DNA of 64,000 nucleotides from positions 24,556,848 to 24,620,847 of the forward strand of contig CM120643.1 in assembly GCA_051362555.1 (NCBI GenBank). Reading direction: 5' to 3'. A program made the position numbers and the translations under genes. Source of the DNA: Lingula anatina (lineage: Eukaryota > Animalia > Brachiopoda). This document shows, one piece after another, positions 8,108 through 57,138 of this stretch (position 1 is the stretch's first letter; each line of letters opens with the position of its first letter). The notes below the pieces were generated by a model. The model was not told the origin of the DNA and searched no databases. It worked only from the letters and a program-made list of their open reading frames with translations.

Positions 8108-8445
8108 TATAGTCACTGTTTAGTGCAGACAGCACAGGTATGTCTCCTTATGGTCATTGTAAAATGTGGATCTTATTAACCATATTGAATATTATTGTCA
8201 CAACCGGTATTTAGAGCAGACAACACAGGTCAGTCTTGGTATGGTCACTATTTAGTACAGGCAACACAGGTCAGTCTTATTGTGATGGTCACTATTCAGT
8301 AAAGACAACACAGGTCAGTCTTATTGTTATGGTCACTATTCAGTAAAGACAACACAGGTCAGTCTTATTGCTATGGTCACTATTCAGTAAAGACAACACA
8401 GGTCAGTCTTATTGTTATGGTCACTATTTCGTACAGACAACACAT
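8108..8445. repeat. 44-bp tandem repeat derived from the last codons, stop and start of the 3'UTR
   Basis: Unit ATGGTCACTATTCAGTAAAGACAACACAGGTCAGTCTTATTGTT at 8241, 8285, 8329, 8373 and 8417, plus degenerate copies to the left. Confidence 0.85.
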
Positions 8446-9563
8446 GCTACTTCTCTTCCATCCACATATGGTGGACAGGGGAGGGAACCACATTTAACCT
8501 CAGCAGCATAGAACAGGCCACCATCTTTGTTTTCATGACCCCCAGCTACCACTTCTGGAGCTTCATCAAGGCAGACAAACTCTGATCTCTGCAGTGTGTC
8601 ATGATCTGATACCAGGTATCCATTGTACTCTGTTGTCCACCCAGCTGGACATGTCTTCTTGGCTGGTATCATCACATGACTGGGCCGTGTTTGGGTGTAG
8701 CATACTGCACAGGGGGCATCATGCTGAATAAATTCCTGACCTCCTGTATTGGATGTTGAAAAAATATTAGATTTAATATGTTCATATTCTACACCATGTA
8801 TGTAAGAACCTAAATCTTGCCCTCCATCTTGGTATTTCCCCCACTCTGGTGTCTGTGGCAAACACAGGTAATTACTGCCTCCTCCAGTTTTGCTGTAATG
8901 GGATCCAGCAGATATCCCTGATATTAAAAAAGATAAAATGAATTTTTTTAGATTTAAACTAACTATATAGGTGTAAAATTTAAAATAAAAATGTATGAAT
9001 ATATTTAAATAATTATTATTATTATCTTGAAGGCAAGTAAAACCTCACTTTAAAGGCCTGAGTTTTTATTAATTTACCTTTGTACAAAAGCTTTGAATGC
9101 GTTGAACAAGTTGTTCTGCCCCAACGTGTGTACACTGCCCCACCATGGCTGGTATTGGCTGGTAGACCTAAAAACATACAGTAAATCTAGACAAACATGT
9201 TGTATACACTGCCCCACCATGGCTGGTATTGGCTGGTAAACCTGAAAACATACATTAAACATAGAGAACCATATCGTGAACACTGCTCCAACATGGCTGG
9301 TATTGGCTGGTAAACCCGAAAACATATATTGAACCTAGAGAACCATATTGTATGCCCATTATGGCTGGAAGTGCTCTTACACAAGATACCATGAAAATGC
9401 ACACTTTCAAAACAGACATCTTTATGATCAACTTAATGTTGCCCAGCAATCTTTAGCCCATTCATCAGTATAGCTCTCTTATAAGGGTAAAACCTTCAAT
9501 AAAATGGAAAAAAATGAATCTTAGAAGTCAGTGCAGAGAAATGTAAAACGGATCCCCCCCCCC

Positions 9564-9596
<33 letters not shown>

Positions 9597-11994
9597 AACA
9601 TAATCAAAAGGAAGAGATTCATGTAGTTAAAGCACCAGACAAACCTGTAGGTGGCACTCCTATCTGAGCTCCAATTTGTCCCAGCATTTGTTTGAGTGTA
9701 TCCAATGTTAGAGATCCTGGGTCCCCTTTAGGTCCAGGTGGTCCCTTGGGAAATTGAACAAAAATATTGGAAATGCTATTATTACACATAGGAATGTATA
9801 TTAACAGAATTATAAACTGGTGATATCAATTATAGATCTGTTATCTATGAGTTGATTATTTGGAATAACATGTCAAGAACATTTTCAGAAGTATATCTCA
9901 TGGAACACTTAATATTTCCCATTTTTCATGATATTTTAAAAAAGTAGAAAACAGTTTAATGTGTATTTTTTGATATTTCAAGAATTGGATATCATAGTTC
10001 ATAGATTACATTATTGTCTAATTTTAAATCAAAACTAATATAAATATTCAACCATAATTTTGAATTACAAAACTAGCATAGATCGATATAGCCATCATGC
10101 TAAGTTTTACCTGTATTCCATCTCTGCCATCTTTACCATCTCTCCCAGGTAATCCCTGTGGACACTGAACACTGCTCCCTGAGGAATTGACAACTGAAAA
10201 GTATATATTAGTAATACATTTTTTTATTTCTTTGGATAATAACTTTGTCTTAGTGAAATCAATAAATGTATTTCATAATTACATATCAATTCTGACAGTT
10301 ACCTTACCATTCACAAGACATCAGTCAGTCATCTCAACTTGGGGCTAAACATAGCCCAGAGGTGACCTCACCCAAAATCAATCATTGTATAATACTAAGT
10401 AGTACAGGTAAATTGAAATATAATTTAAAATATCATTTTGTATCTTATATTCCACTGTTACTAGTAAGGGATTGTTCTTCATGATATTTGATATTTAAAA
10501 TGAATGTTTTATTGTTTAGAAAGATAGGGTATCATTGGATAAGACCTTATGTGGTAGCAAAATGTTTTCTGTTTTAAGTTATCATATAGAGTGCAGACCT
10601 TTACCATTACCTTGTAGTGGTGACTGATATCCAAGCAGTCCAATGATTTGCTTGAGACTGTCTACTGTTAAACCTGGGTTCTGTGGATTAATTAAGGTAT
10701 TTGTAAGATAAAGCTATGAAGTGTTCACATTTTGTCATTTCCCACAATAAGAACAAAAAATGGTATGTAGTGTTAAAATTAAATCATATCTACATAAAAA
10801 AAAAATATGTAAGATATTTATTTGGTATTTTTTCACTTTCAATTCCAACTTATTATGTCACATGTCCATGGATTCATACTGAAGAAGCAATTGTTAAATA
10901 TTATTACTAACAAAAATTATTTGTTATAGCACGTGATAGTCATGTAATTTATCACAATTGAAGATGAGTTAAATTACCCAAATTCCATCCTTCCCATCCC
11001 TGCCATCTTTTCCATCCTTACCATCCCTGCCATCTCTTCCTGGGGGTCCTTGGGGTCCTTGTACACAGCCTGAACTTACCACTAAAATACATATATTTTG
11101 ATGCTGAGTGTCAGCTTAGGGATACATGCTAATGTTATCTGTCATGTAAATATTTTCATATAGAAGGCAGGATTGTCCCACTTTGATATAAAATTTTTTC
11201 TGACATTGTAGGTGAATAGTTACCCCAACTTGAGGCCACAGCAATAACAGTCATAATCAGCAGATATTGCTTAAATACACCTACTACTTCTTATATTGTG
11301 GAACAACAGAAATAAGCATCCTATTAAATTGGGGTTTTATCATTCCCCATAATTAAATTTGGGGCATATTCCTTTAAACCTGCAGTATATTTTATCAAAT
11401 TTTGTGATATTTGGTTTTGTACCATTTTTGATTAATCAAAACTGGTGCAAAAAGTTAATATAAGACTTTAACAAATAATATTGTAACTTACAGTTTCCTT
11501 GCTGCACTTGTCTCTTGGTAATAGAATGGTGAAAGTTTGTTGCATTTTGCTCAGGAACAGTGACTGTTTGTGAATCTAGCTTCAACTTGATTTTCTGAAT
11601 ATCTGACTGATTAAAAAGATTTGATTAGTCTTTTACTATCATTTTTAATATATGGAAATTAAATTATGTAGGCTGTTAAAGATGTTAATTTTTGTTATTT
11701 GACTACAGTGAAGAGAGACAATTAAGGGATCAAACTATTGGAAAATTCACAATCATACAATTAGGCAAGTTGTGAAGCACAAAATACCTTAAGTTGTCTG
11801 TTTTCCTGTTTTACTGCAGCAACCTCCACCTCCAACCTTTTCAGGAATGCTATTTCTCGTTCTTGCTTGTCCAGTCTTTCAACCAGTTTCATCAACACAT
11901 CATTATTGACATCAGCATGATGTTGTAAAGTTGATGCAGAGACAGTAGCAACAATAAGGGCAGTGAATACATGAAAATACATGATGTGCAGCAT
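8424..11994 (-). CDS. Short-chain collagen C4-like (spongin-related) secreted protein, paralogue B1, 8 exons
   Basis: Exons 11788-11994, 11492-11606, 10978-11081, 10611-10680, 10111-10193, 9645-9744, 9078-9167, 8424-8917, all GT-AG and phase-compatible. Signal peptide, coiled coil, ITKR|Q, Gly-X-Y, NC1 (YTRWGRTTC..GGGSNYLCLP..PCAVC..MIPAK..CPxGW..LPCPPY..CVVCTK). Confidence 0.88.
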
Positions 11995-13936: not shown

Positions 13937-16900
13937 CTATTTAGTACAGACAACACATGCTAGTTCTCTTCCATCCACATATGGTGGACAGGGGAGGGTG
14001 CCACATTTAACTTCAGCAGTGTAAAACGAGGCAGCAATTTTGTCCTCATGGCCTCCAGCTACCACTTCTGGAGCTTCATCAAGACAGACAAATTCAGTTC
14101 TCGCATAGTCATCACGATTTGATACCAGGTATCCATTGTACTCTGTTGTCCACCCAGCTGGACATGTCTTCTTGGCTGGTATCATCACATGACTGGGGCG
14201 TGTTTGGGTGTAGCATACAGCACAGGGGGCATCTTGGTCAGGAAGATTATGACCTCCTGTATTGGACTTTGAAAATATGTTACTTTTAACATATTCATAT
14301 TGCACACCATGTATGTAAGAACCTAAATCTTGCCCTCCATCTTGGTATTTCCCCCACTCTGGTGTCTGTGGCAAACACAGGTAATTACTGCCTCCTCCAG
14401 TTTTGCGTTCGTCAGTTCCAGAAGCTATCCCTAAAGATAAAGTTATACAATTTAGACATTTTTAATTGTAAGCTTAGTTGCCTATATTTTTATGCAGAGG
14501 AAGATCAAGTATAAAATCTTTTAAAATGTGGTTCATGTACGGTATACCGAGTTATCCCTAGAAAACCTATTTGTTACAACATGCATTTTACCTTTGTACA
14601 AAAGTTTTGAATGTGTTGAACAAGTTGTCCTTCCCCAATGTATATACACTGCTCCACCATTGTTGTTATTGGCTGGTAGAGCTGAAAACATACAGAAAAC
14701 TATATTGTGAACACTACACTGCTACACGTATGTCTGGTAGTGCTTTAAGACCAGATAACATAAAAATGTACATTTAAAAACTGACGTCACACTCATTTTT
14801 GCACAACAACCTTTGTTACTTTCTATCAGGGCCACAGATTGATTTTTCACAGAATATTCACAGGTACATGTATGCCTTTAGATAAATAGACGGTCATTTA
14901 CTTATCTGATCCTGTAATGAAATCTCTAGGCTGATTACATGTCTGGTAATTGTTTGCATAACTGTCCAGGCTAAGTCACTTTGACAGCAATGAAGACGGT
15001 TATATTAATTGCTCTGATTTAAATCACTTGTTCTTTTGTGACAAATAAAAGTAGCCCCTTCTGAATACTGTAGCTTGTTACAACATATTGAAAATAATTG
15101 AGAAATCTCCTTAGTAGCTCCCTACAGAGCTGGTACAATTCCGCAGTGACGAGAAGGTTAAAATCATACTAAGCCCAGAAAATGAGAAAGAATTGTACGC
15201 TGTTGGTAAATACATTCAGAGGGCAACTTCCAAAAGAAATGAGCATCTGCCACACTGAAGTAGCCTCATCCTGCTATATATTATATGAACCATAAGTATG
15301 GCACATTAGATACATATAGCTATAAGCCTATCAATGAAAATGTGTGTTCCCTCAGTGTATTGAACTATTTACAATTGTAATAAGTATTTTAAACAACGTA
15401 TACACTGTTTTTAATAATCTTAAACACTGTATTAGTAGTAATCCATAGTGATGTATAACTATTTATTTATTTATATATTTGTAGTATAGAGGGCTAACAA
15501 ATGTAACTGTCACATTTAATGCTCGAATAAATTATTATTATAATTCCATCTGTGTGCGGGCAGATTTAACTGCTTCCATCTGGCCAAAAATCACACAGTG
15601 GTTTTTCCAATTTTTCCCTATATAATCTGCCACCCTGGTAGAGGGTAAACCTTTGTAACATTTATCAGAACAACTGTCTGTTTGCTAAAAAGTAAAACCT
15701 TCGATAAAATGGAAAAAATGAATTTGTTAATGAAGTCAGTGGACAGTAACATACAGAACAATTAACAAAACTAAAAGGAAGAGGTTCACATAGTTAAAGC
15801 ACCAGACAAACCTGTAGGTGGCACCCCTTTCTGAATTCCAATTTGTCCCAGCATTTGTTTGAGGGTATCCAATGTTAGAGATCCTGGGACCCCTTTAGGT
15901 CCAGGGGGCCCCTTAGAAAATAAAAAAATATCAATTATGAATTATTTTTATGAATTAATTACTAATTATTTATATGTTTTTACAAAAACAAGAACAAAAA
16001 TTATAATGTTGTAATTAAATTATATCTACATCAATATATATTTATTTGGTATTTTTTTACTATCGATTCCAACTTATGTATGTCACATCCCAAGCCTTCA
16101 TACTCTAGAAGCAATTTTTAAATATTGTATAATTATTATAATTATATATGATGGCATACAATTTTATTCAAGAAAGAAAATTTATTCTAAAAGTCATGGA
16201 ATTTGTCATAAGAGAAGATCAGTAAAGTTACCTGAATACCATCTCTGCCATCCCTGCCATCTCTTCCTGGGGGTCCCTGGGGTCCTTGTAGACAGCCTGA
16301 ACTTACCACTAAAATACAGGACACAGTGGTTTGAATTGCTGGTTTTTTAAACAGGATACAGATGCTGCACGTTGATACTCAACCATAAAATGCCTATTGT
16401 CACATATAATATTATCTAAAATCAATATATCCTCTTGATATATCTTATCAGGAATTGTATAAAATGTCAGTTCAAGACTTCTAACAAATGATAGCTTACA
16501 GTTTCCTTGCTGCACTTGTCGCTTGGTAATAAAATGGTTTCCATGGTGAAGGTTTGTTGCATTTTGCTCATGAACAGTGATAGTTTGTGCATCAAGCTTC
16601 AACTTGATTTTCTGAATATCTGACTATTTAAAAGATTACATTAGTCTTTATACTATAGATCTGTCATTTTCAGCATATGGAAATTGTTCAACATAGGTTG
16701 GTAAGATGTTAATTTTAGTGATAGTTAAGATATACCACGTGGGAAATTAACAATGTTGGGGTTGGGCGGAATTTCAAATACAAAATACCTTCAGTTGTTT
16801 GTTTTCCTGCCTCACTGCAGCAACCTCAGCTTTCAGTTTTTTCATCTCTTGTCCCTGCTTGTCCAGTCTTTCAACCAGTTTTATCAACACGGCATTACTG

Positions 16901-16980
16901 GCACTGTCATGATGATGTCTTAAAGTTGATGCAGAGACAGTAGCAACAAAAAGAGAAGTGAATAGTACATGAAAATACAT
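13937..16980 (-). CDS. Short-chain collagen C4-like paralogue B2, 6 exons
   Basis: Exons 16789-16980, 16500-16623, 16232-16308, 15812-15911, 14592-14681, 13937-14430. Open frame. Lacks the two middle exons present in B1. Confidence 0.87.
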
Positions 16981-20269: not shown

Positions 20270-20797
20270 CTATTTAGAGCAAACAACACAGGCCAGTTCT
20301 CTTCCATCCACATAAGGTGGACAGGGGAGGGTACCACACTTAGCTTCAGCAGTGTAGAACAAGGCCCCATTTTTGCCCTCATGGCCCCCAGCTACCACCT
20401 CAGGAGCTTCATCAAGACAGACAAACTCTGTTCTGTGGTGGACATCAAGATCTGATATCAGGTATCCATTGTACTCTGTTGTCCACCCAGCTGGACATGT
20501 CTTCTTGGCTGGTATCATCACATGACTGGGGCGTGTTTGGGTGTAGCATACAGCACAGGGGGCATCATGTTGTTGAAAATTTTGAACTCCTGTATGGGTT
20601 GTTGAAAATATGTTTGAGTAAATCCTTTCATATTCCACACCATGTATGTAAGAACCAGTACCTTGCCCTCCATCTTGGTATTTCCCCCACTCTGGTGTCT
20701 GCGGCAAACACAGGTAATTACTGCCTCCTCCAGTTTGACTGTAGTAGGTTCCAGCAGATATCCCTGATATAAAAAGTTATAAATTCCATTTTATAGA

Positions 20798-20841
<44 letters not shown>

Positions 20842-23683
20842 GATATCATTGTCGTTATCAGTGTTATTATAATATGGCTGAATGGTTTAATAGAACCATA
20901 CTTAAGAAAGATGTACTTTTGGCTCGATCTTTACCTTTGTACAAAAGTTTTGAATGTGTTGAACAACTAGTTCTGCCCCATCGTGTGTATACTGCCCCAC
21001 CATGGCTAATATTGGCTGGTAGACCTGAAAACATACATTTAACCTAGAGAACCATATTGTACTGGTATACACTGCCTCACAATGGCTGATATTGCTCATA
21101 AACCATGAAAATGTACCATGAAAATGTACACTATCAAAACAGACATCTTAATGATCAATTTAATGTTGCATAATCTTTATCCAGTTGATAAGTAGAGCTG
21201 TCTCATAACTAAAAAAAGTAAAACCTTCAAAAATGAATAAAAACTGAAGACACTAATGAAGTCGTATCAATGCAGTAAAATTGTAGAATGTATTCCCAAA
21301 CTAAAAGGAAGACATTCATGTAGTTAAAGCACCAGACAAACCTGTAGATGGCACCCCTATCTGAGCTCCAATTTGTCCCAGCATTTGTTTGAGGGTATCC
21401 AATGTTAGAGATCCTGGATCCCCTTTAGGTCCAGGTGGTCCCTTAGAAAATTTAACAAAATATTAAAACTGATATTCAACAAAGGAATAGGGATTATTAC
21501 ATATTAAGCATAAACTGATGCATTGTCCTATTATTTTATGAAATTGCTTTATACTCTAATTTTCAATTAAAAGTAAAAAATATAAATATTCAATCATAAT
21601 TTTGAATTACAAAACCATTGAATATATACCAATCATGCAAGGTTTTACCTGCATTCCATCTCTACCATCTCTCCCAGGTAATCCAGGTGGTCCCTGAACG
21701 CTGCTCCTTGAGGAGTTACCAACTGAAAAGTATATCTTTTGAATTCAGATAGATACTTTAGATAAAAACATTGTCTGTGTAGAATTAATGCATTTCATAA
21801 CTGCATGCTTTGTACAGTCACCTTACCATTCATAAGGCATCTTCAGTCATCACTACTTTGGGCCAAACATAACCAAAATCAATAATTGTATAATATTAAG
21901 TAGTACAGCTAAATTGAAATATGAATTAGCATTTCATTTTGCATCTGATAGTTTACTGTTACTACTAAGCAATTGTTCTTCATGCTATTTGTTATTTAAA
22001 ATGAAAAGTATATTGTTAAGAAGGAAAAGGCAGGCATTTCATAAGACCTTATGTGGTAGCAAAATGTTTTCTGCTGTAAGCTACAATAAAGAGCTGAGCA
22101 TCTCTACCATTACCTTGTAGTGGTGACTGATATCCAAGCAGTCCAATGATTTGCTTGAGACTGTCTACTGTTAAACCTGGGTTCTGTGGATTAATTTAAG
22201 ATATTTGCGATAAAATGTGGTTAAGATTTCATATTTTATCATTTTACACAAGTTGAATGTTACAATTCAATAACATATATGTCAAAAAGTATTTGTATAT
22301 GATGTACGTGTACTTGTCGTCATTTCACTATCAATTCCAATTGAAATAAAGGTTTCTATGTCAAATTTCCACATCTTCATACTCTAGAAGCAATATTTTT
22401 TAAAAATTAAAAAATTAAAAAAATGTTTTATAATTAATTTATTAAAAGAATATATATTATGGCATATGATTTTATTGTAGAAAGAAAAGTTATTCTAAAA
22501 GTCATCATGTTATTTGTTATAAATGAAGATATATAGAGTAAAATCACCTGAATTCCATCTTTCCCATCTTTCCCATCCTTGCCATCCTTTCCATCTTTCC
22601 CCGGGGGTCCCTGGGGTCCTTGTATACACGATGAACTCACCACTAAAACATAGGACACAGATGCTCAGTATAATACACTCTACTGTTATCTGTTACTTTA
22701 AATATTTTCTGGATTGTCCCATTGTGAATGCTGCACATTTTTGATAAACAATTTTCAGACATTGTGGGTGATTGGTTACCTCAATAACAGTCTTGGTCAG
22801 ATGAAAGGCTTCGATACACCTACTAGTTATTATATGTTGTGGTAGCATCTGTTAAATAAATTGGGGTTTTATGATTCCCCGTTATCAGATTTGGGGTATA
22901 TTCCTTTAATCCTGCAGTATTTTTATCAAGATTTATGATATTTGGTTTCGTAACAATTTTGGCCAAAAAGTCCATTTAAGTATTAACAAATAATGTTAGA
23001 GCTTACAGTTTCCTTGCTGCACTTGTCTCTTGGTAATGGAATGGTGAAAGTTTGTTGCATTTTGCTCAGGAACAGTGATAGTTTGGGCATCAAGCTTCAA
23101 CTTGATTTTCTGAATATCTGACTAATTAAAAAGGTTTGATAAGACTTTTTAGTATCTATGCCATTTAAATATATGGAAATAATAGAATGTAGGCTGTTTA
23201 AGTTGTCAAAATTTTTTATTATTGACAAGAGTGAAGAGAGACAAGGGATAGCAGGAGCGGATTCAGGCCGTCTTTTGGGTCTTCCGGAAGACAGTCAGAT
23301 TTTCAAGTTTACATTGACGGGTATCAATTTTTTTGTGGGAAGACGGTCAAAAATGGATGATGGATCAACAAAGTTAATTTGGAAGACTGTCAGAAAAACA
23401 TCTCTGGATCCGACCCTGGATATAACTTGGAAAATTCACAATCATACAATTAGGCAAGTTGTGAAGCACAAAATACCTTAAGTTGTTTGTTTTCCTGTTT
23501 TACTGCAGCAACCTCCGCCTCCAATCTTTTCAGGAATGTTATCTCTTGTTCTTGCTTGTCCAGTCTTTCAACCAGTTTCATCAACACATCATTATTGACA
23601 TCAGCATGATGTTGTAAAGTTGATGCAGAGACAGTAGCAGCAAAAAGAGCAGTGAATACATGAAAATACATGATGTGCAGCAT
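20270..23683 (-). CDS. Short-chain collagen C4-like paralogue B3, 8 exons
   Basis: Exons 23477-23683, 23007-23121, 22548-22642, 22114-22183, 21649-21722, 21342-21441, 20935-21024, 20270-20763. Open frame. Confidence 0.88.
23252..23418. mobile_element. MITE, same family as 18965-19132
   Basis: High similarity to 18965-19132. Absent from the paralogous B1 intron 1. Confidence 0.75.
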
Positions 23684-24694
23684 TTTGGGACAGTCAAGAT
23701 TATGACTTGGGCGAAGCTTAGAAAAGCTCTTTTATCAATTGATTGGCCCTTAATTTATCAATTGGACTTGTCAAACACAGACAGTGTGGGGCTTAGTACC
23801 AATATTTGATTAATGATATTTATAGGTAAGCTGTTGTCTATTTTTTCTATTAATCTCTCTTGACAATCAGTAGACAGTGACACATTCAATCACGAACCTC
23901 TTACTCCTCAGTTCTCCTGAATTAAACTCTTTAAAGTAGATTACGTGGGCACCACCAGGTACTCTTTACTCAAGATTTGACAGTTCATTTATCTTTTCAA
24001 TTTAATATAGCTTACCGATATCGTTCCGGTGCATAGAAGCACTTCATTTTGGTCCTTTAATATCAGATAAGATTTGCATTTTGTCCCTTTTACATTTTGC
24101 CCAAGTTCCAACTCTTTTCCAGTGTATGTCATGCAACTGAACTCTCAGAAACAGTTTTTTCAGTTCCTACACTATTTGCACTATTCATTTCTTAGTTTAT
24201 TCCTGTATTAACTTACTGTTTTCTTAAAAATTTTTATTACAAATGTTTTTCTAGATGCAAAAGATAATGTTGTTTCAGCAAGCTTTGTAATTTAGCAATT
24301 AGAAACGTAGTATGTTATTTTTCAAATATTCAAAAATTATTCTAAAAAATATTAAAATAATAGCAAGCAACATATATAGATGTCAGTGAAAAATCACATG
24401 GCTAGAAATTTAACCCTGGGAGACCATCTCTGCCATCTTGTCCATTTTTTCATCTTTTCCTGGTGGACCTTGACGGCAACAATTACTGCCAACTGAAAGT
24501 GGAATTCCCAGTTGGTTCTGTTAAGGAAGTTCTTCAAATAATCTACCACAGCATCTAGAATGCACGGCTGATTTCATTACGCCAAAGACACCTAACAGTT
24601 GTTCGTTTATGCCCCTTTTTTAAGAAAGTATTTAGCTTGTAAGTCACACAAGCCAAGCAACTAAACTCCTACTTCACAAAAACTGTTGGGTTAG

Positions 24695-25318
24695 TGGCCA
24701 GTCACAAATCAGTTGCGATGCGTCGGGGATGGGTAAAACCCGGGAAATTTGAACAAAATCTTGAGACAGATCTCACGATTTTGCACCCGTCGGAGGCGCT
24801 CTCCGGACGCCTGCGGGTTGTCGCAGATTTTTTCTACCACACCCGTCGCGGTCCCCAACTTTGAACTTAAATTTTAAGATTGCTCGCAAGATTTTTCACC
24901 CATTTTGGGCATCCCAGACACAATCTCCGATGACCTACGATGCCCTCTGATTAATCGGAGGCGTCCTCCGAATATTCTGAGACTAGTACAGTACAGTGTA
25001 CAGAGAGAAATACAGATGACCGAGGTCAGAAAACCCTCCTTTTCCCCCTCATATATACCCAGGGGGGAAAATTACAAGAAAAGACGCTCGCAGATATCGT
25101 CTCCGATTGCATCGGAGGCGATCGGAGACGATATCTGCGAGCTAACCCCACGATTTTTCGACAAAACCCGGTCAAAATCCTTGAAAAAATCTCAGACAAT
25201 GTGACTGCTCCACTTTTACTAGGATTATTGCTAGGATTGTTCAAGGATTCTTTATTTTCTACGACGACCCTCGGCTAAAACTAATCCCCGACAGATCGCC
25301 GACATTGTGACTGGGCCA
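24695..25318. mobile_element. Non-autonomous TIR element
   Basis: TGGCCAGTCACAA ... TTGTGACTGGGCCA inverted ends. GC-rich interior. Interrupts sequence that is contiguous in paralogous introns. Confidence 0.6.
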
Positions 25319-25320
25319 TT

Positions 25321-25799: not shown

Positions 25800-25845
<46 letters not shown>

Positions 25846-26095: not shown

Positions 26096-26130
<35 letters not shown>

Positions 26131-39271: not shown

Positions 39272-39995
39272 TACAGTGATGTCTATGTGATGTATCACCC
39301 TATTCTGGGTCCCTGATGTTAAGTTAAAATATGATAAGTTGTTGTTTATATAAAGAGATCTTCAGTAGTTTGTTTGACACATTTTTAATAAAGCTTTAAA
39401 CTGTGAACTTCCAAGGTGATCTTTTTAATGTATATCCCTAATCCAAAATGAGTTGTACATAATAACACACTGTACAATTACATAATTGTATTAAAATAAA
39501 GAAAGAAAGAAAAAATAACAAAAATTCTGCTCTTTAAAAATTACTTTATTTACTATGCAGACACAAATCAACTAATCAAAAGCATTTTATTGTATTTGGT
39601 ATCTTTAATTCAATTTTCATGAATAAACCAAAAACCTACAGACTAGATGTATATTATATCATTTAAAATTTTTTGCTTACTTAACTAATTTGCTGCTGAA
39701 AATTGAATAGGCATTGCCTATGGTACAAAGCTGTCATTGAAGTAGTACTAGCCAAATAAATATCTTTCGATTAGTAAATTACTTATATTGTAGGAAATAA
39801 CACATTTAAGTTCATCAAAGGCTATTCCTAAGGTCATTTTATCAAAAATTAGCAAAGACAGGCCATCTTTCTCGGATCCTATTCACAGATTATAATTATA
39901 TTCATTCAACATATATATGAACTGTTTAGTACTGACAGCACTGATTATGGTCATTTTTAAGTGTCAATATTATGAACCATATTTTATGTTCTTCA

Positions 39996-42900
39996 CTATT
40001 TAGTACAGACAACACATGCCAGTTCTCTTCCATCCACATATGGTGGACAGGGCAGGGAACCACACTGAGATTCAGCAGTTTGGAACAAGGCACCGTTTTT
40101 GTTTTCATGACCCCCTGCTACCACTTCTGGAGCTTCATCAAGGCAGACAAATTCTGTTCTCTGGTAAATGTCACGAGCTGATACCAGGTATCCATTGTAC
40201 TCTGTTGTCCACCCAGCTGGACATGTCTTCTTGGCTGGTATCATCACATGACTGGGGCGTGTTTGGGTGTAGCATACAGCACAGGGGGCATCATGATTAA
40301 AAACATCTTGACCTCCTGTATTGGATATTGAAAATATGTTAGGATTAACATATTCATATTCCACACCATGTATGTAAGAACCAGTACCTTGCCTTCCATC
40401 TTGGTATTTCCCCCACTCTGGTGTCTGTGGCAAACACAGGTAATTACTGCCTCCTCCAGTTTTGTCATGGTCAGTTCCAGCAGATATTCCTGATATAGAA
40501 TTATAAAAGCCATTTTTAAAGATTTTAATTACTCTTTAACCATAGATGTCAAATTCAAAATTATAAATATATATATATATATATAATTCAAAAATTTGTA
40601 TTATTATTATCATTAACATTGTTATAATTATTTTGAATAGCACTTTACCTTTGTACAAAAGCTTTGAATGTGTTGAGCAAGTTGTTCTGCCCCAATGTGT
40701 GTATACTGCCCCACCATAGCTGGTATTGGCTGGAAGAGCTGAAAACACACATTAAACCTAGAGAAACATATTGGACTGGTATTGCTCATACACCAGATAC
40801 CATATGAAAACTTACACTTTCAGAACAGACATCTTACACCCCATTTCCATAGATTAGATCGACCTACTTTAGATCGACCTAACTCCCTGGGGGTTCACGC
40901 TAAATAGCTGTCAGCCGGGCGGACATGAAAGTTAATTACCTCCTTACAGCTTGTAATAGGTGGGACGGACATTTAAGTCGGATTTTCTGGAAGTAATCTA
41001 GTGAGGCTCCCTGCGGGGATAGATCGATCTAAAATCTATGGGAATAGAGCCTAAATGATCAACTTACTAGTAATGTTGCACAATCTTTATCCAGTTAATA
41101 GCTGTCTCTTAACTAAAAAAAGTAAATCATTAAAAAAATGGATGAAAATTGAATTCACTAATGAAGTCCTATCAATGCAGTTAAAGTGTAGAAAGTATTC
41201 CCAAACTAACAGGAAGACATTCATGTAGTTAAAGCACCAGACAAACCTGTAGGTGGCACCCCTATCTGAGCTCCAATTTGTCCCAGCATTTGTTTGAGGG
41301 TATCCAATGTTAGAGATCCTGGGTCCCCTTTAGGTCCAGGCGGTCCCTTATAAAATTCAACAAAAATATTGAAACTGCTATTTCACAAAGGAACATATAT
41401 TATTACATATTTAGTATAAACTGGTGCATTGTCAATATATTTCAAGAAGTGGATGTCTTGGTCTGTAGATTGCATTATACTCTAATTTTCAATCAAAATA
41501 AATATAAATTTTTAATCATAATTTTGAATTACAAAACTACTGAATATATAGCCACCATGCAAAATTTTACCTGTATTCCATCTTTACCATCTCTCCCAGG
41601 TAATCCCTGGGGTCCCTGAACATTGCTCCTTGAGGAGTTGACAACTGAAAAATAAATCTCAGTGATAATAATAATAATTTCTTTGGATAATGATTAAGTC
41701 TTCTGGAAATCAATGTATTTCATAAACACACGTCACTTTGGACAGCTACCTCATCATTCACAAGGCATCATTCAGTCATCACAACTTTGGGCCAAGCATA
41801 GCCAAAAGGTGACCTCACCCAAAATCAATAAATGTATAATACTAAGTATAGTACAGGTAAATTGAAATATGAATTAGCATTTCATTTTGCATCTGATATT
41901 TTACTGTTACTACTAAGTGATTGTTCTTCATGGTTTTTGTCATATTTAAAAAGAAAGAAAAGGCATTATTTGATAAGACCTTATTTGGTAGCAAAATGTT
42001 TTCTGTTTTAAGCTATAATATAGAGAGCAGGCCTACCATTACCTTGTAGTGGTGACTGATATCCAAGCAGTGCAATGATTTGCTTGAGGCTGTCTACTGT
42101 TAAACCTGGGTTCTGTGGATTAATTTAAGATATTTGTAATAAGAAACAATGAAGTGTCCACATTTTGTCATTTCCCACAATGAGAACAAAAAAGGATAAT
42201 GTTGAAATTAAATTATATCTACATAAAAAAATTATATATGATATTTATTTGGTATTTTTTCACTATCCATTCCAACTTATGTATGTCACATGTCCATGGC
42301 TTTATACTCTAGAAGCAATTTTTAAATATTGTATAATTATTATAATTATATATGATGGCATACAATTTTATTCAAGAAAGAATTTTTTTCTAAAAGTCAT
42401 GCAATTTGTCATAAGTGAAGATCAGTAAAGTAACCTGAATTCCATCTCTGCCATCCCTGCCATCTCTTCCTGGGGGTCCCTGGGGTCCTTGTAGACAGCC
42501 TGAACTTACCACTAAAATAGAGGACACAGTGGTTTGAATTGCTGGTTTTTAACAGGATACAGATGCTGCACATTGATACTCAACCATAAAATGCCTATTG
42601 TCACATATAATATTATATAAAATCAATACATCCTCTTGATATATCTTATTAGGAATTGTATAAAATGTTATTTCAAGACTTCTAACAAATGATAGCTTAC
42701 AGTTTCCTTGCTGCACTTGTCGCTTGGTAATGGAATGGTTTTCATGGCGAAGATTTGTTGCATTTTGTTCAGGGACTGTGATAGTTTGTGCATCAAGCTT
42801 CAACTTGATTTTCTGAATATCTGACTAATTTAAAAGATTAGTCGCTTTTTACTATAGATATGTCATTTTCAGTATGTGGAAGTTGTTGAAAATTGGCTGT

Positions 42901-43181
42901 TAATGATGTTAATTTTTATAATTGATGATAGTTAAGATATACCAACTTATGGGAAATTTACAATGATGGAATTGGACAGAATTTCAAGTACAAAATACCT
43001 TAAGTTGTTCATTTTCCTGCCTCACTGCAGCAACCTCAGCTTTCAGTTTTTTCATCTCTTGTCCCTGCTTGTCCAGTCTTTCAACCAGTTTTATCAACAT
43101 GGCATTCATGTCATGATGATGTTGTAAAGTTGAAGCAGAGACAGTAGTAACAAAAATGGCAGTGAATACATGAAAATACAT
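39996..43181 (-). CDS. Short-chain collagen C4-like paralogue B4, 8 exons
   Basis: Exons 42999-43181, 42701-42824, 42435-42511, 42043-42112, 41571-41644, 41247-41346, 40649-40738, 39996-40489. Open frame. Confidence 0.88.
40836..41051. mobile_element. MITE, inverted copy of 36305-36519
   Basis: Reverse-complement similarity. Absent from the paralogous B5 intron at about 60738. Confidence 0.72.
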
Positions 43182-44365: not shown

Positions 44366-44439
44366 ATAGACCACCTTAACTCAGCCACTTATTTTATCTT
44401 TCCACATGTGAAAGAAATGTAACCTTTGTGTCCTTGCAG

Positions 44440-49339: not shown

Positions 49340-52300
49340 TTATTTAGTACAGACAACACATGCTAGTTCTCTTCCATCCACATATGGTGGACAAGTGAGG
49401 GAACCACATTTAACTTCAGCAGTGTACCACAAGGCACCCCTTTTGTTTTCGTAACCGCCAGCCACCACTTCTGGAGCTTCATCAAGGCAGACAAACTCTG
49501 TTCTGTGGTGGACGTCAAGCTCAGATATCAGGTAGCCATTGTACTCTGTTGTCCACCCAGCTGGACATGTCTTCTTGGCTGGTATCATCACATGACTGGG
49601 GCGTGTTTGGGTGTAGCATACAGCACAGGGGGCATCATGGTAGCGAAACTTCTGACCGCCTGCATTGGATGTTGAAAATATGTTTTCAAAAATATACTCA
49701 TATTCCACACCATGTATGTAAGAACCAGTACCTTGTCCTCCATCTTGGTATTTCCCCCACTCTGGTGTCTGTGGCAAACACAGAAAATTACTGCCTCCTC
49801 CAGGTTGGTCCCAGAAAGTTCCAGCCGATATTCCTAATAAAAAAGTGAAGTCAAATTTTATTTGCTAGCATAGGTGCCAACGACGAAAAGAAATACAGAC
49901 AAATATTACTTAGGAAATGTAATGCAGTAGATTAATGTTTAGAAAAGGCATGTGTTTCAAGTATTTACCTGCATACAAAAGCTGTGAATGTGCTGCACAG
50001 GTTGTTCTGCCCCAACGTGTGTAAACTACCCCACCTTGGCTGGTAGTGGCTGATGAGCCTGAAACATACATTTAACCTAAGGAACCTTGTTGTTAGGCCT
50101 GTAGCCAGGGCAGCTTGGGGGTTTGAACCAACCGTCCTTTTTGCCAGGTAAAAGGTACACTCTTGGTAGAATTTGATTGGTTTCATGGTAAAAAAATCAA
50201 CTTAGAAATAAGAACTGCCCCTTGGGAAATGGTGGCTACAGGGCTGATTGTATACTGCCCCACCAAGGCTGGTATTGGCTGGTAAACCTGAAAACATATA
50301 GTAAATCTTCAGAACCACATTGTATACACTGCCCAACCATGGCTGGTATTGGCTGGTAAACCTGAAAACAGTATAAACATTAAGAACCACACTGGAAAAT
50401 GCTGGGGCTGATTGTATACCCTGCCCCACCCCCCTCCCATATGACTGGTACTGGCTGGTAGACCAGCAAACATTCATTAAATTTTGAGAAACATATTGTT
50501 AACACTATTCCACCACAGTTGGTATTGTATGGGGTATCAGTTCAATCTCATCTCCCAAGCTTATTCAGACAATCCCCCTCCCCACAATCCCCCCATCCAT
50601 TTGGTGAAATAAAAAAGTTAGTTACTTCCTAGCTTGCCACACAATTAAGCTGATTACTTTGACTGCTCTTAAGCAAGAATCCCTGCAGAGATAGCTAGAT
50701 CAGTCCTGCTTTATTCTGAATTCTCCCTTACGGAACCCTTGTACCTATCATTTCTATTTAGAAAAGACTCATTTATCAATAAAGAGATAAAAAGGGCAGA
50801 ATGAATGAATTCATTGTACGTTAATGTAGAGTATATTTTTTTCAACTTAAAGACAAAATTGACAAAAACGTAAAGGGCAATTAAAGAGCATATGACATTA
50901 GAGTTATTAGACAAACCTGTTGTAGTTGGCATGCCAATCTGAACTCCAATTTGCCGTAGCATTTGTTTCAGGTTGTCTAATGTTAGAGAAACTGATTCCC
51001 CTTTTGGTCCAGGTGGTCCCTTAAAATATCCAATGTATGAAACATACTTAGAGCGCATTTTCAACGAATTAAGCCAGGCTTTACAAAGCCGGTGACCTAA
51101 AAATGGCGGACGTACATGAAAGAAAAACCGCCTAATCTTTTAATAGTCTCTCCGCCTCCCCACACGTCGTCCCTGCGGGGTACAGTAATTAAATCGCGTC
51201 TCCGTTCGCCATGCGGAAGCTACCTGAGAAATATTAAGTGCGCATGCTCATCAGTTAAACTCGTGGTGAAGAAAGCATGGCGGCTGAAGGCGATCGAAGG
51301 AAAAAAGCTCTTCTGTTCTATTATCTTTGAAAACAGAGACGAAAAAGGAATAATTTGGCCCGTAGAGCAGCAATGAATCGACTGTCTACGGGGATAATAT
51401 CACCAGAGATATTCACGGAAATATTAATGTTCGGAGCCGAGATTTAATTACTGTAACCCGCAGGGATGACGTGTGGGGAGGCATGTGAGAGGCGGAGAGA
51501 CTATTAAAAGATTAGGCGTTTTTTCTTTCATGTACGTCCGCCATTTTTAGGTCACCGGCTTTGTAAAGCCTGGCTTAATTCGTTGAGAATGCGCTCTTAG
51601 CCTATTAGCTTCTATTACATTTAGACTGGGTTCCCTTGCTAGCTCGATCCATCTGAATCAGTCTAACTCCCTGAGGAGTCTCACTAAATTGCCATCAACT
51701 AACCAGCTTACAAGGCATGACAGACATTTAAGCTGGTTAAGTTGATAACAATTTAGTGAGATTCCCCAGGGAGATAGATCGTTCCAAATATCTGTGGGAA
51801 TTAATGATCCCTAAGAAACCTACATTGTACTATATGGTTACTGCTGTTACAATTATGTGCATCATCAGATAGATTAATTTTGCATACTAAGACAATTTGA
51901 ACGTTTATCTCAGGATAATCTATTTATTAATCAAATGTAATATATTTTCATGATAATTGAAGGTTTGAACAAGATGCAAAGTGTAAAAAATTATCAGTAC
52001 ATAGGTTACATGACTAACTGAGTTTGAATTATTATAATTGGTCCTAATTTTTAACCTACAGTGTACATCAAATCTGAGACATGTCTCTCCATTATAAAGC
52101 TAGGGAATAACCTTGCTTTTATTACATGTAGAAAAAGTTTTTTTATATCCTGTTCACACAAATATCAGATAACTCATAGTATTACGTGTATGTAAAGGAT
52201 TATTCTAATGGCTTTATATCTGTTTATAATCAACTTGTTTATGCCATAAGTATGAATCTTTTTGCTCTATCACCAGGCATGCTTTTTATAAAATTATTTT

Positions 52301-53415
52301 TTAGGATTATCATATATAATTTGTTTGCAAAATTAACTTATATAACTGTACATATTTTTAAATGGAAAAAGCTTTTTATTCTTAAATGATATCATGCACA
52401 TAATCATTTGTAAATTAAATTTGGAAAATTAAGTAAACCTGGAATCCGTCCCTGCCATCTCTTCCTGGGGGTCCCTGGGGTCCTTGTACACAGACTGAAC
52501 TAGCCACTAAAATATAGGACACAGATATAAGTTGATTTGAATAACTGGTTTTCAACAATGAGACTGATGCTGTAAGCTGTCCCTAAACTATTAAGCATAT
52601 TTTAAAGATATAAGACAGCCAAAAGGTACTGCTGAAATACTGCTAGGGGAATAACAGAATAAATAAACATTTGAATAAACATTTGAATGTATACTTAGAA
52701 ATTGGAGTTTAATGCATCTTCACATTTTTTTATTAACATAGGAACATATACTTTTAGTTGCTTTTTTTTATCATGTTCAGCAATATTTCTCAGGTTATAT
52801 TGTCTAAAAATGGTGTAAACAAGTCAACATAAGACCTATTACAAATAATTTAGCTTACAGTTTCCTTGCTGCACTTGTCTCTTGGTAATGGAATGCTTTC
52901 CATGGTGAAACTTTGTTCTATATTTTTCAGCAGCCATGGTGGTTTGCCCATCAAGCTTCACCTTGTCTTTCTGAATATCTGACTAATTTGAAAGTGAAAG
53001 AAAAATTATAGTTTTAACTGGTCTACAGATATGTGGTTTTTAAGTCATGGGAATTGTAGAACTTAAATTTTTAATTATTGTGTTTGTTTTAACTATTCAT
53101 TGACATTTAAGTTAATTATTGGTGCAAACCACAATCATGCTGAGAGACAAAATTCAAAGCTCAAAATACCTTAAGTTGTTTGTTCTCCAGTCTGACTGCA
53201 GCAACCTCAGCCTCAAGTTTTTTCATTTTTTGTTCTTGTCTGTTTAGTTTTCTAACTAGATTTTTTATCTCTAGTTCTTGCCTGTCCACTCTTTCAACCA
53301 GTTTCATCAAAGCATCATTATTGACATCAGCATGATGTTGTAAAGTTGATGTTACTACTGTTATAACAGCAGCAGATACAATTAGAAATATTAACTTGGT
53401 CATGGTGTACACCAT
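49340..53415 (-). CDS. Short-chain collagen C4-like paralogue C, 6 exons
   Basis: Exons 53170-53415, 52859-52982, 52439-52506, 50917-51019, 49969-50058, 49340-49833. Open frame. Confidence 0.87.
50096..50245. mobile_element. Small MITE
   Basis: TIRs AGGCCTGTAGCCA / TGGCTACAGGGCT within an intron. Confidence 0.6.
51051..51596. mobile_element. Palindromic PIF/Harbinger-like MITE
   Basis: Near-perfect TIRs over 100 bp (GAGCGCATTTTCAACGAATTAAGCC...), TTA TSD. Confidence 0.85.
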
Positions 53416-54072
53416 AAATTGTAGGTAATATATACATGTATACAGTTGGTCTTTAACCTGGGTCTTTGTCTCAGACTAGCAGTTGATAATATTTGTGTGT
53501 TGTTTACATAAATAGATACATATGTATCACAAGACCAAGTTGAAACTCATGCCACCGGCCTTCATATGTTTGTTTGACACAGTTTGATATGAAACCAAGG
53601 TTATAAACTAGTTTTTTCGCATATCTCTTAAGTCTACATGTACATGTGTTGTGCACATTCAGTATGGCCTGAAAATTATTTTTATCTCCAAGTTTAATCC
53701 AATTAAAATAACCAAAAATTATTGTACTTTATGGCTATTTTATATATTACTCAGACACAAGTGTGTATCAAAAGTATATTATGTTTTCTTTTATTCACTT
53801 TTCACAAAAAAACTTACAACCAAAACCAAGTCATTTGCCTTATTTATTAATTTGCTGTTAAAATCAATAAAGTTGATAAAATGCTATTGGTGTGAAGCAC
53901 TGGATGTAAAGCAAAACATGAAATGAAAAAGCATATTTTAATAATTACCCGGTACCTATCACCATATTTCTTGGAAGTGCCACTTGAAATTCAACATGGA
54001 CAATTTTTATGCATGTGTCAGTTTGTATGCAATTTGAAAAATCACAACAGGTCAGTCATTATGTTATGGTCA

Positions 54073-55864
54073 CTATTTACTACAGACAACACAGGCCAGT
54101 TCTCTTCCATCCACATATGGTGGACAGGGGAGGGTACCACATTTAACTTCATCAGTATGGAACAAAGCACCATTTTTGTTCTCCTGGCCCCCAGCTACTA
54201 GTTCTGGAGCTTCATCAAGGCAGACAAACTCTGTTCTCTGGTATTTATCATATTCTGATACTAGGTATCCATTGTACTCTGTTGTCCACCCAGCTGGACA
54301 TGTCTTCTTGGCTGGTATCATCACATGACTGGGGCGTGTTTGGGTGTAGCATACAGCACAGGGGGCATCATGCTGACCAGGATTCTGGCCTCCTGTATTG
54401 GTTGTTGAAAATATGTTTGAGTAAATCCTCTCATATTCCACACCATGTATGTAAGAACCAGTACCTTGCCCTCCATCTTGGTATCTCCCCCACTCTGGTG
54501 TCTGTGGCAAACACAGGTAATTACTGCCTCCTCCAGTTTGGGTCCAGTAAGTTCCGGCTGATATCCCTGAAAAAGTCCATAAATTTTTCATTGTCATAGG
54601 GGCCAAAATTGAAAAGAAAACTTAAGTACAAGTGATTTACTTATCTTTGGACACATGTTTATAAAAGGCATGTGTTTCAAGTATTTACCTGCATACAAAA
54701 GCTGTGAATGTGCTGCACAGGTTGTTCTGCCCCAACGTGTGTAAACTGCTCCACCTTGACTGGTAGTGACTGGTAGACCTGAAAACACACATTAAACCTA
54801 TGAGTCAAATTGTAAACACTGCTCCAACTCCAACCTTGTGGACCCTGAGGACCTTGTGGGCAGCAAAGACTGCCAACCAAAAGTGGAGTTATCAGTTGGT
54901 TCTGTTTAGGATGTGCTTACTTCAATTTGAACTTCAAATATCTACCACAGCAAAAGCTGTAAAATGCAGAGCTGCTTTCATTTTGTCATATGTACATGAA
55001 ATCAGTTCAGTTATTCTCTTTTTTAGATACTGAGCTTGTTAGTTACATAACCAATGCTAGTAATCTCCTACTATATACTGTTGACCCATGCAGCATCTTA
55101 CATATGACCCAAGATTAAATATTATACTCACGGCTGCCAAGTACTTGTCTTTTGGTTAAGTAATGGGTTTTGTTATCATCATCATTTGAGTACTGGAAGG
55201 TAGGGTTTTCAGTGTTTGATGTCAGTTCTTGCAGTTTAAGGCTAATTTCCTGTATCTTGACCTGAAATTAGGTATCTTTATATCTGTAGATTATAAATTT
55301 AAAGATATTCATGAGCATCTCTTTTCAGACTCTACTATTTCTTATTTTATAATAAAATCTTAAATTTTTTGCTATTTTCAAAATTCTGCAACGATGAAAT
55401 CATCTTGATTAAGATTTTTTATTGCAATTCAGTAAGCAGTCTCTGTTCTCATTTGTTTCTGACAGTTGAAATTCATGCTAGGATTAAGATATCCTTTATA
55501 CACATATACACACACACACAGCTAGAGCAATATTATATAATTATACAATAAGAACGTATATAGCTCTAGCTCTGTTGCCTATGTTTTCTACCTTCAAGTT
55601 CTCATTTTCCCTTTTGATTGTGTGAACATCTGCTTCCAATTTCTTCAACTTGGAAATTTCTACTTTAAACCTGCTATTTTCCTCCCTCAGCATTTGGCTT
55701 CCATGTTTTAGTTGGATTATCTCTTGTTCTTGTCTGTCTAGTCTTTCAACCAGTTTCATCAATGCATCATCACTGACTTCAACATGTTGTGCATTTGGTG
55801 TCATTGCTGTCATAACAACAGCAGTTATAATGAGAAACATACTCTTCACCATGGTGTATGCCAT
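54073..55864 (-). CDS. Paralogue A4: predicted collagen-less form (signal, coiled coil, KR|Q, NC1)
   Basis: Exons 55592-55864, 55132-55261, 54689-54778, 54073-54566 join in frame. The collagen exon is only a remnant with a mutated acceptor (about 54835-54877). Confidence 0.65.
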
Positions 55865-57138
55865 TACAGTGATATGTCTATGTAATGTATCACCCTATTC
55901 TGGGTCCCTGATGTTAAGCTTAAATATGATAAGTTGATGTTTATATAAAGAGATCTTCAGTAGTTTGTTTGACACATTTTGATAAAGCTTTAAACTGTGA
56001 ACTTCCAAGGTGATCTTTTTAATGTATATCCCTAATCCAAACGTGTTGTACATAATAACATGTTGAATAATTACATAATTGTATTAAAATAAAGAAAGAA
56101 AGAGAAAATATAACAAAAATTCTGCTCTTCAAAAGTTACTTTATTTACTATGCAGACACAAATCAACTAATCAAAAGCATTTTATTGTAATTGGTATCTT
56201 TAATTCAATATTCATGAATTAACCAAAAACCTACAGAATAGATGTATTTTATATCATTTAAAATTTTTTGCTTACTTAACTAATTTGCTGCTGAAAATTG
56301 AATAGGCATTGCCTATGGTACAAAGCCAAATAAAAATGGAACACATGTATCTTTTGATTAGTAAATTAGTAATATTGTAGGAAATAACACATTTAAGTTC
56401 ATCAAAGGCTATTCCTAAGGTCATTTTATCAAAAATTAGCAAAAACAGGCCATCTTTCTCGGATCCTACTCACAGATTATTATTATATTCATTCAACATA
56501 TATATTAACTGTTTAGTACTGACAGCACACCTTATGGTCATTTTTAAGTGTCAATATTATGAACCACATTTAATCTTCTGCACTATTTAGTACAGACAAC
56601 ACAGGCCAGTTCTCTTCCATCCACATATGGTGGACAGGGGAGAGAACCACACTTAGCTTCAGCAGTGTAGAACAAGGCACCGTTTTTGTCCTCATGGCCT
56701 CCAGCTACCACTTCTGGAGCTTCATCAAGGCAGACAAACTCTGTTTTATGGTTACCATCATGATCTGATACCAGGTATCCAATGTACTCTGTTGTCCACC
56801 CAGCTGGACATGTCTTCTTGGCTGGTACCATCACATGACTGGGACGTGTTTGGGTGAAGCATACAGCACAGGGGGCATCATGCTGAATAAATTCCTGACC
56901 TCCTGTATTGGTTGTTGAAAATATATTAGTCCTGACATTCTGATATTCCACACCATGTATGTAAGAACCTAAATCTTGCCCTCCATCTTGGTATTTCCCC
57001 CACTCTGGTGTCTGTGGCAAACACAGGTAATTACTGCCTCCTCCAACTTTGTTGTAGTAGGTTCCAGCAGATATCCCTGATATAAAATTATAAAAGCCAT
57101 TTTTAAAGATTTTACTCATAACCATAGATGTCAAATTC

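What the first reader, a model, noticed from the sequence alone, without database searches (positions are those of the whole stretch)
8424..57076. Mosaic sharing of variable patches implies gene conversion or segment shuffling between paralogues
Seen: patch variants are shared in incompatible combinations. QDLGS occurs in B1/B2/B5, QEFIQ and SDHD in B1/B5, ISxLDVHH in B3/C, FQTAESQ in A3/B4, IYSNIFSTT in B3/A3/A4, TAEAKC in B3/B5, and terminal CSK in B3/A4. Sharing crosses the A and B N-terminal types. Inference: near-identical framework blocks act as homology arms that recombine loops, and damaged copies with open NC1 exons (A3, B5) could be donors.
Basis: partly seen in the sequence, partly recalled or inferred. 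Interest (0 to 1): 0.75.

Follow-up and report, generated by a model that had tools for sequence, protein, structure and literature searches.

The report
Loop-shuffled spongin-like genes in a brachiopod
A cluster of eight spongin-like collagen gene copies, most likely from the lamp shell Lingula, carries head-domain loops in mixed-and-matched combinations that no single family tree explains, likely because neighbouring copies swap short DNA stretches in the germ line, a pattern known from immune gene families and a hint that these proteins may recognise varied targets.

Summary
The window holds a minus-strand tandem array of short-chain collagen C4-like (spongin-related) genes; the best hits are Lingula anatina proteins, up to 98% identical. 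All eight named patches lie where stated. Five have identical codons in their carriers, two differ at a few codons, and CSK is convergent. One tree is rejected: PHI p<5e-5, 0 of 750 single-tree simulations reach the signal, and the 5' intron and 3' flank group the copies differently. A3 and B4 share 106 identical bases. Sister copies B4/B5 differ at 2% upstream but 23% in the loops. Framework silent sites are homogenised (pS 0.045 against 0.31 in loops). A codon model finds positive selection at a few loop codons. Public protein models and RNA reads show further patch variants. Best reading: germ-line gene conversion plus unequal crossover, with likely diversifying selection on head loops. The damaged-donor idea is not supported: the one long tract leans towards A3 as recipient. 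Somatic shuffling and an immune role are untested. The mechanism is familiar; I did not find it described for this family.

The parts
8424..11994 (-). Gene B1, 8 exons, open 420-aa frame; last (NC1) exon 8424-8917
13937..16980 (-). Gene B2, 6 exons, open 358-aa frame; NC1 exon 13937-14430; public model P0156 differs by 1 residue in this exon
20270..23683 (-). Gene B3, 8 exons, open 414-aa frame; NC1 exon 20270-20763; B-type 5' side but a 3' flank like A4 and C; public model P0001 differs by 1 residue in this exon
36645..39271 (-). Copy A3, damaged (frameshift in the signal exon, stop after 29 codons); open NC1 exon 36645-37144 with a private 6-nt insertion; A4-like 5' intron (90%) but B-type 3' flank
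36638..36743 (-). 106-nt tract of A3 identical to B4 39989-40094 (FQTAESQ patch to 7 nt past the stop)
39989..40094 (-). The same 106-nt tract in B4
39996..43181 (-). Gene B4, 8 exons, open 403-aa frame; NC1 exon 39996-40489; recent sister of B5
49340..53415 (-). Gene C, 6 exons, open 374-aa frame; NC1 exon 49340-49833; B-like signal exon, A-like penultimate exon
54073..55864 (-). Gene A4, 4 exons, open 328-aa frame lacking the Gly-X-Y exons; exon 2 joined to the penultimate exon in 7 RNA reads of run X15; NC1 exon 54073-54566
56583..61808 (-). Copy B5, damaged (signal exon and the next two absent; 3.4-kb last intron with LINE-like RT frames); open NC1 exon 56583-57076
8707..8752 (-). 46-nt identical run B1/B5 (QEFIQ patch; B5 56866-56911); pairwise P 0.066
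20587..20626 (-). IYSNIFSTT region of B3 shared with A4 (54400-54429) and A3 (36962-36998)
20418..20443 (-). 26-nt identical run B3/C (VHH patch; C 49488-49513); pairwise P 0.023
20333..20365 (-). 33-nt identical run B3/B5 (TAEAKC patch; B5 56646-56678); pairwise P 0.046
5990..7470 (-). Remnant A1: A-type 5' exons with a stop, no NC1 exon, next to a Gypsy-like element
24400..28230 (-). Remnant A2: broken A-type 5' exons, no NC1 exon

Best explanation
Eight head-domain (NC1) exons of a tandem array of spongin-related short-chain collagen genes are patchworks of each other's segments, likely made by germ-line gene conversion and unequal crossing-over between neighbouring copies, with selection likely favouring new loop variants. 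Shown: the segments and the two non-coding flanks give incompatible trees; shared patches are mostly codon-identical; framework silent sites are far more alike than the introns or loops; recent sister copies have diverged most in the loops. Inferred: mispairing in the near-identical framework (blocks of 20-110 nt) starts exchange; short tracts (about 25-110 nt) move one or two loops, and crossovers inside the exon join a 5' half to a foreign 3' flank (B3, A3). Exchange runs among all copies, not from a dedicated donor set. Inferred and untested: the secreted proteins (signal peptide, coiled coil, short Gly-X-Y, NC1 head) use the variable loops to bind varied targets, in the manner of collectins.
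For: PHI p=5e-5 and incompatibility rising with distance. 0 of 750 single-tree simulations match. The 5' side groups A3/A4/C, the 3' flank groups B3/C/A4 against B2/A3/B4/B5; each flank rejects the other's tree (AU p 2.7e-36 and 1.4e-4), and the two 3' exon segments reject the whole-exon tree (p 0.004, 1e-4). 106 identical nt in A3/B4. Framework blocks 1-3 pS 0.045, loops pS 0.31; 32 of 46 four-fold framework sites invariant in all 8, while last introns of A and B types are 46-59% alike. B4 vs B5: 27 of 1181 differences upstream, 44 of 681 downstream, 43 of 186 in loops, 10 of 303 in framework. With 10 public Lingula models added, 26 of 66 patch pairs show all four combinations. M2a over M1a: 2dL 47.8 (one tree), 25.8 (four segment trees), omega about 5-6 at codons 7, 8, 107, 108; codons 7 and 108 are conserved in 75-80% of 129 distant homologues. 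The family is spliced and expressed in 3 of 3 RNA runs laid.
Against: Only 1 of 28 pairs passes the global run test. The two 5' exon segments do not reject the whole-exon tree (AU p 0.22, 0.17), and segment limits were set after viewing the alignment. In the window alone only 1 of 66 patch pairs shows four combinations. CSK is convergent. Pairwise loop pN (0.23) is below pS (0.31); the codon test is my own code with fixed relative branch lengths, and leftover recombination or multi-base changes inflate it. Loops are variable across the whole family too (mean conservation 0.48 against 0.70). Four of the ten public models are labelled isoforms on one scaffold and could be gene-model chimeras. 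Reads were not phased across loops. No call tests binding or immune function.
Confidence: 0.8

Rival explanations
1. Recombination is real but the loop variability is neutral: loops tolerate change, and once diverged they block conversion, so only frameworks stay homogenised. The proteins are ordinary matrix spongins.
For: Loop pN below loop pS. The same regions are variable among 129 distant homologues. Exchange also hits 5' exons and introns, e.g. 96% identity over 369 nt at the B1/B3 signal exons. Papers treat the family as matrix protein (PMC5395295, PMC6626399, passages).
Against: M2a beats M1a even on segment trees. Loops of the sisters B4/B5 differ 4-10 times more than their non-coding flanks. 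Two family-conserved positions vary here.
Confidence: 0.25
2. The mosaics are assembly chimeras between near-identical copies or haplotypes.
For: Frameworks of up to 110 identical nt can mislead assemblers; run X4's contigs do not show A3's private base at 36907; no listed contig spans the stretch laid.
Against: B2 and B3 match public models at 162 of 163 residues. An 81-nt contig with no difference bridges the start of the A3/B4 tract with 37 and 43 nt on either side (that run may be the window's own source). Each copy has its own introns and flanks. Degraded tracts (B3/C) are not what a chimera gives.
Confidence: 0.05
3. One duplication tree with convergent substitutions at hot loop sites.
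For: CSK arose twice with different codons; loops are fast-evolving.
Against: identical codons in five patches; the non-coding flanks also conflict.
Confidence: 0.02
4. Programmed, somatic conversion from damaged donor copies, as in chicken immunoglobulin genes (recalled), perhaps helped by AID/APOBEC-like enzymes.
For: Two damaged copies keep open NC1 exons. Lingula has AID/APOBEC-like genes (PMC7768089, passage). RNA reads carry loop variants absent from the window.
Against: The mosaics are in the genomic copies themselves; 6 of 8 copies are open genes; the long tract leans to A3 as recipient; A3's private base is in 0 of 89 RNA reads; new variants are equally explained by other alleles or paralogues.
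Confidence: 0.04

Closest known systems
[quoted passage not shown]
   Same: Short collagen segment plus a collagen IV-like NC1 head; 50-56% identity to proteins so named; 10 cysteines in the domain; best fold match collagen IV NC1.
   Different: Here a tandem array with DNA-level homogenised frameworks and shuffled, positively selected loops; one expressed copy has no collagen segment. The passages read (PMC5395295, PMC6626399) describe the family as matrix protein only.
Sea urchin Sp185/333 (SpTransformer) genes
   Same: Closely linked genes with shared sequence elements, thought to diversify by gene conversion, recombination and mispairing (PMC1988830, PMC5103432, passages).
   Different: Sp185/333 has almost no pseudogenes, flanking short repeats and a shown immune role; this array has 2 damaged copies and 2 remnants, a folded cysteine-rich head, substitution patches and no tested function.
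Plant R-gene clusters, KIR, MHC
   Same: Clustered paralogues making hybrid genes by unequal crossover and conversion (PMC5103432, passage); selection on exposed loops (recalled).
   Different: Different protein scaffolds; ligand recognition is shown there and only inferred here.
Collectins, ficolins, C1q-domain proteins
   Same: Secreted collagen plus globular head layout (family features recalled); some public models are auto-named collectin-12 or scavenger receptor.
   Different: The head is NC1-like, not a C-type lectin, fibrinogen or C1q domain: no Pfam family at E<=0.1 for 2 of 2 NC1 exons tested.
Chicken immunoglobulin gene conversion (recalled)
   Same: Short templated tracts bounded by conserved framework.
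   Different: That system is somatic, one-way and fed by pseudogenes; here the mosaics are genomic and most copies are open genes.

Membership tests
[quoted passage not shown] | Short collagenous segment joined to an NC1 domain (PMC5395295, passage) | tested here: met
   Present in 5 of 6 open genes; A4 lacks the Gly-X-Y exons
[quoted passage not shown] | NC1 homologous to collagen IV NC1 | tested here: met
   Model pLDDT 91; Foldseek top hits all collagen IV NC1, E 7e-4, TM only 0.23-0.29; VIA Z 6.7, rmsd 5.8 over 162 residues: remote
[quoted passage not shown] | Seven cysteines shared with collagen IV plus three of its own (PMC5395295, passage) | tested here: inconclusive
   Count fits (10 in P0001); position-by-position homology not checked
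[quoted passage not shown] | No HSQ motif (PMC5395295, passage) | tested here: inconclusive
   Absent in 5 of 8 copies; A3, A4 and C have the letters HSQ after the first cysteine; whether this is the collagen IV site was not tested
Collagen IV proper | Long triple helix and a Pfam C4 domain | tested here: not met
   Proteins of 328-420 aa with short Gly-X-Y runs; no Pfam hit for 2 of 2 NC1 exons, penultimate exon not included
Conversion-diversified tandem families (Sp185/333, R-gene type) | Tandem cluster of similar genes | tested here: met
   8 NC1 exons and 2 remnants, one strand, 56 kb
Conversion-diversified tandem families (Sp185/333, R-gene type) | Mosaic segments incompatible with one tree | tested here: met
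Conversion-diversified tandem families (Sp185/333, R-gene type) | Repertoires differ between individuals | tested here: inconclusive
   8 of 10 public models differ from every window copy by 6 or more residues; RNA runs show other loop variants, unphased
Conversion-diversified tandem families (Sp185/333, R-gene type) | Immune or recognition function | not testable with these tools
   No expression-by-challenge or binding data
Pseudogene-templated somatic conversion (chicken Ig type, recalled) | One-way flow from non-expressed donors into one expressed gene | tested here: not met
   6 of 8 copies open; long tract leans to A3 as recipient
Pseudogene-templated somatic conversion (chicken Ig type, recalled) | Somatic, deaminase-dependent | not testable with these tools
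   No matched DNA and RNA of one animal; reads not phased
Collectins / ficolins / C1q | C-type lectin, fibrinogen or C1q head (recalled) | tested here: not met

The most novel reading that the evidence does not exclude
The array is a recognition repertoire built on a collagen IV-type NC1 head, whose loops are recombined not only in the germ line but also somatically in immune or gut tissue, with Lingula's AID/APOBEC-like enzymes starting conversion between copies. A milder form (germ-line only, collectin-like recognition) I put at about 0.3, with interest 0.7.
Probability: 0.05. Interest if true: 0.9.

Novelty: new member of a known kind. Interest (0 to 1): 0.5.

Why it matters
Spongin-related proteins are widespread in invertebrates and are treated as matrix proteins of little-known function. 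Loop shuffling with positive selection is the signature of recognition families. If it holds, it points to a collagen IV-derived head used as a variable binding scaffold, names the residues to test (codons 7-8 and 107-108 of the last exon), and adds a candidate diversified receptor family in brachiopods. The recombination mechanism itself is ordinary for tandem arrays.

Tried and rejected
No whole genome is held, so copies outside the window were seen only as public protein models. Pfam gave nothing for the NC1 exons; the PDB sequence search gave one chance hit, E 0.25. The wide structural search was busy and the protein atlas unreachable: no verdict. No RNA holder was listed by the index: no evidence either way. 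B1-B3 and B5 were not covered by a read lay, so their expression and alleles are not checked directly; one stretch (A3, 861 nt) was laid with 4 of 21 listed runs, 6-25% of each RNA run read, and 103 difference rows, 29 loose ends and 116 contig pieces were not shown. Earlier scan findings: none. My first guess that A3 donated to B4 (one site shared with A4) was dropped after the full count. CSK rejected as a shared patch. Dropped before counts: A3's 6-nt insertion columns; P0155 (no NC1) and P0151/P0154 (same NC1 as P0124/P0125) from the four-combination test. Loop positions could not be mapped in 3D because no coordinates were returned. Literature searches that showed no report of this array or of conversion in this family: (swamped by 'sponging'); listings only, open-access library only; the 2006 family paper was seen only as a reference; supplements were not read.
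Full report
What the locus is. Six-frame translation shows eight long minus-strand frames of one family. A protein search with B3's last exon gave 868 hits among 890 candidates; the best is a Lingula anatina model at 98% identity, followed by proteins named short-chain collagen C4-like from amphioxus, corals, annelids and bivalves at about 45-60%. The species is inferred from these hits. Mapping public models back and splicing by coordinates gives six open genes with GT-AG introns: B1 420 aa, B2 358, B3 414, B4 403, C 374, A4 328. Each reads signal-like start, coiled-coil-like segment, short Gly-X-Y runs (absent in A4) and a cysteine-rich head split over a 90-nt exon and a last exon of about 494 nt. 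A3 has a frameshift in its first exon. B5 lacks its first three exons and has a 3.4-kb last intron with reverse-transcriptase frames. A1 and A2 are remnants without a head exon. The predicted head (pLDDT 91) is nearest to collagen IV NC1 (Foldseek E 7e-4 with low TM; Z 6.7). This fits the spongin-related family as described in PMC5395295 (passages).

The observation. Five of eight patches are codon-identical in their carriers, two are partly so, and CSK uses different serine codons. Of 492 aligned nt, 144 vary and 59 are informative.

One tree does not fit. Incompatibility between informative sites rises from 0.24 for neighbours to 0.67 beyond 200 nt; PHI gives p=5e-5 in all six versions, including codon-block permutation. 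Simulating on the whole-exon tree with fast loops and gamma rates never produced the signal (0 of 750). AU tests: the two 3' segments reject the whole-exon tree (p 0.004 and 1e-4); the two 5' segments do not (0.22, 0.17); limits were chosen after viewing the data. The run test finds one globally significant tract of 28 pairs, A3/B4 (P 0.006), which is 106 nt of exact identity reaching 7 nt past the stop. The nearest copy changes from segment to segment for every gene.

Non-coding DNA agrees, which selection on the protein cannot explain. The last intron joins A3 with A4 (90%), but the 3' flank joins A4 with B3 and C (76-77%) and A3 with B2, B4 and B5 over its first part. Each flank rejects the other's tree (AU 2.7e-36, 1.4e-4); alignments between groups are poor, within groups good. 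B3 and A3 therefore look like crossover products within or at the end of the last exon.

Framework homogenised, loops replaced. Silent divergence is 0.045 in the first three framework blocks, 0.10 over all framework and 0.31 in loops; 32 of 46 four-fold framework sites are invariant, though A- and B-type introns are only 46-59% alike. B4 and B5 are recent duplicates: 27 of 1181 differences upstream and 44 of 681 downstream, but 43 of 186 in loops and 10 of 303 in framework. Exchange is not confined to this exon: the B1/B3 signal-exon region is 96% alike over 369 nt.

Selection. Pairwise loop pN (0.23) does not exceed pS (0.31). A site model of my own prefers a class with omega near 5 (2dL 47.8 on one tree, 25.8 on four segment trees; codons 7, 8, 107, 108 in both). 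Leftover recombination can inflate this. Loops are variable across the family (0.48 against 0.70), yet codons 7 and 108 are conserved in 75% and 80% of 129 distant homologues and vary here. By secondary structure the variable patches lie mostly between strands, and codons 7-8 and 107-108 follow long strands in the two halves of the domain; whether they meet in space was not tested.

Evidence from outside the window. Ten distinct Lingula models include near-copies of B3 and B2 (1 difference each) and eight other forms. P0152 joins B5's QNVRTN to B4's QDVFNH and an A3-like SEYDNH; P0003 carries B2's NRDDYAR in other surroundings. All four combinations occur for 26 of 66 patch pairs, against 1 of 66 in the window alone. 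P0121, P0125, P0127 and P0156 are labelled isoforms on one scaffold and may be model chimeras; P0152 and P0003 are not so labelled. Laying three RNA runs and one DNA run on A3 showed spliced family transcripts in 3 of 3 RNA runs (88, 100 and 237 reads), mostly 90-99% alike, with loop variants not in the window. In X15, A4-like first loop (15 of 15), middle loop (15 loose ends) and 3' flank (11) come with a fourth loop unlike A4's (11 of 11 reads): this suggests an allele with a swapped loop, but reads are unphased. An 81-nt contig matches A3 exactly across the tract start; that run may be the window's source.

Damaged copies as donors. The A3/B4 tract is 7 changes from B5 and 11 from A4, so it more likely arose on the B side and entered A3; one site points the other way. 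Private framework changes of A3 (1) and B5 (3) are in no other copy. A3's private base is in 0 of 89 RNA reads at that place, and also in none of the four DNA contigs there, so A3 is silent or absent in those animals. No special donor role is shown.

Mechanism and comparison. Most likely: meiotic mispairing between tandem copies, short conversion tracts and occasional crossovers, with selection keeping new loop sets (0.8). This works like Sp185/333, plant R clusters and KIR (PMC1988830, PMC5103432, passages; PMC9546547, one passage) but is none of them. It fails the tests for collagen IV proper, collectins and pseudogene-fed somatic conversion. Lingula has AID/APOBEC-like genes (PMC7768089, passage), which keeps a somatic reading possible but unsupported. 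The passages of the genome paper that I read (PMC4595640, 12 of 15 places) do not mention this array; PMC13093298 and PMC6626399 (passages) list the family as structural. Seven searches showed no report of conversion in the family, within an open-access library.

Verdict. A real, well-supported mosaic; a known kind of mechanism in a family where I did not find it described; function untested. Interest 0.5.

Noticed in passing
window 54073-55864: A4 has lost its Gly-X-Y exons but stays in frame; the exon 2 to penultimate-exon joint is seen in 7 reads of X15: an expressed collagen-less family member.
   Followed up: partly
window 38250-45200 and 54830-64000: Segmental duplication B4+A3 / B5+A4, 95-99% alike over the middle exons and introns.
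   Followed up: yes
window 41050-41100 (and the matching B5 intron near 60770): Six X12 reads join an intronic piece to a B5-type penultimate exon: a likely cryptic exon or internal start; by eye it carries stops.
   Followed up: no
window 9200-9320, 50240-50370: Partial tandem copies of the 5' half of the penultimate exon lie in the intron upstream of it in B1 and C.
   Followed up: no
window 1-5400: Gypsy-like LTR retroelement on the minus strand (gag-like, protease, RT frames) next to remnant A1.
   Followed up: no
window 29673-34885: BEL/Pao-like element (DUF1759, zinc knuckle, protease, RT; family name recalled from this layout) with terminal repeats that hold a GC-rich 64-nt tandem unit.
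   Followed up: no
window 57290-60500: LINE-like RT remnants inside B5's last intron.
   Followed up: partly
window 36302-36518 and 40838-41054: A 217-nt element in two inverted copies, 92% alike, one just 3' of A3 and one in a B4 intron.
   Followed up: no
window 20800-20850, 40560-40590, 57150-57215: (TA)n repeats in the last intron of B3, B4 and B5, just upstream of the NC1 exon.
   Followed up: no
window 8200-8423: About 40-nt tandem unit in B1's 3' flank whose end resembles the gene's own stop region.
   Followed up: no
P0121, P0125, P0127, P0156: Public models labelled isoforms of collectin-12 or scavenger receptor on one scaffold are members of this family with different NC1 sequences; probably several tandem genes merged and misnamed.
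   Followed up: partly
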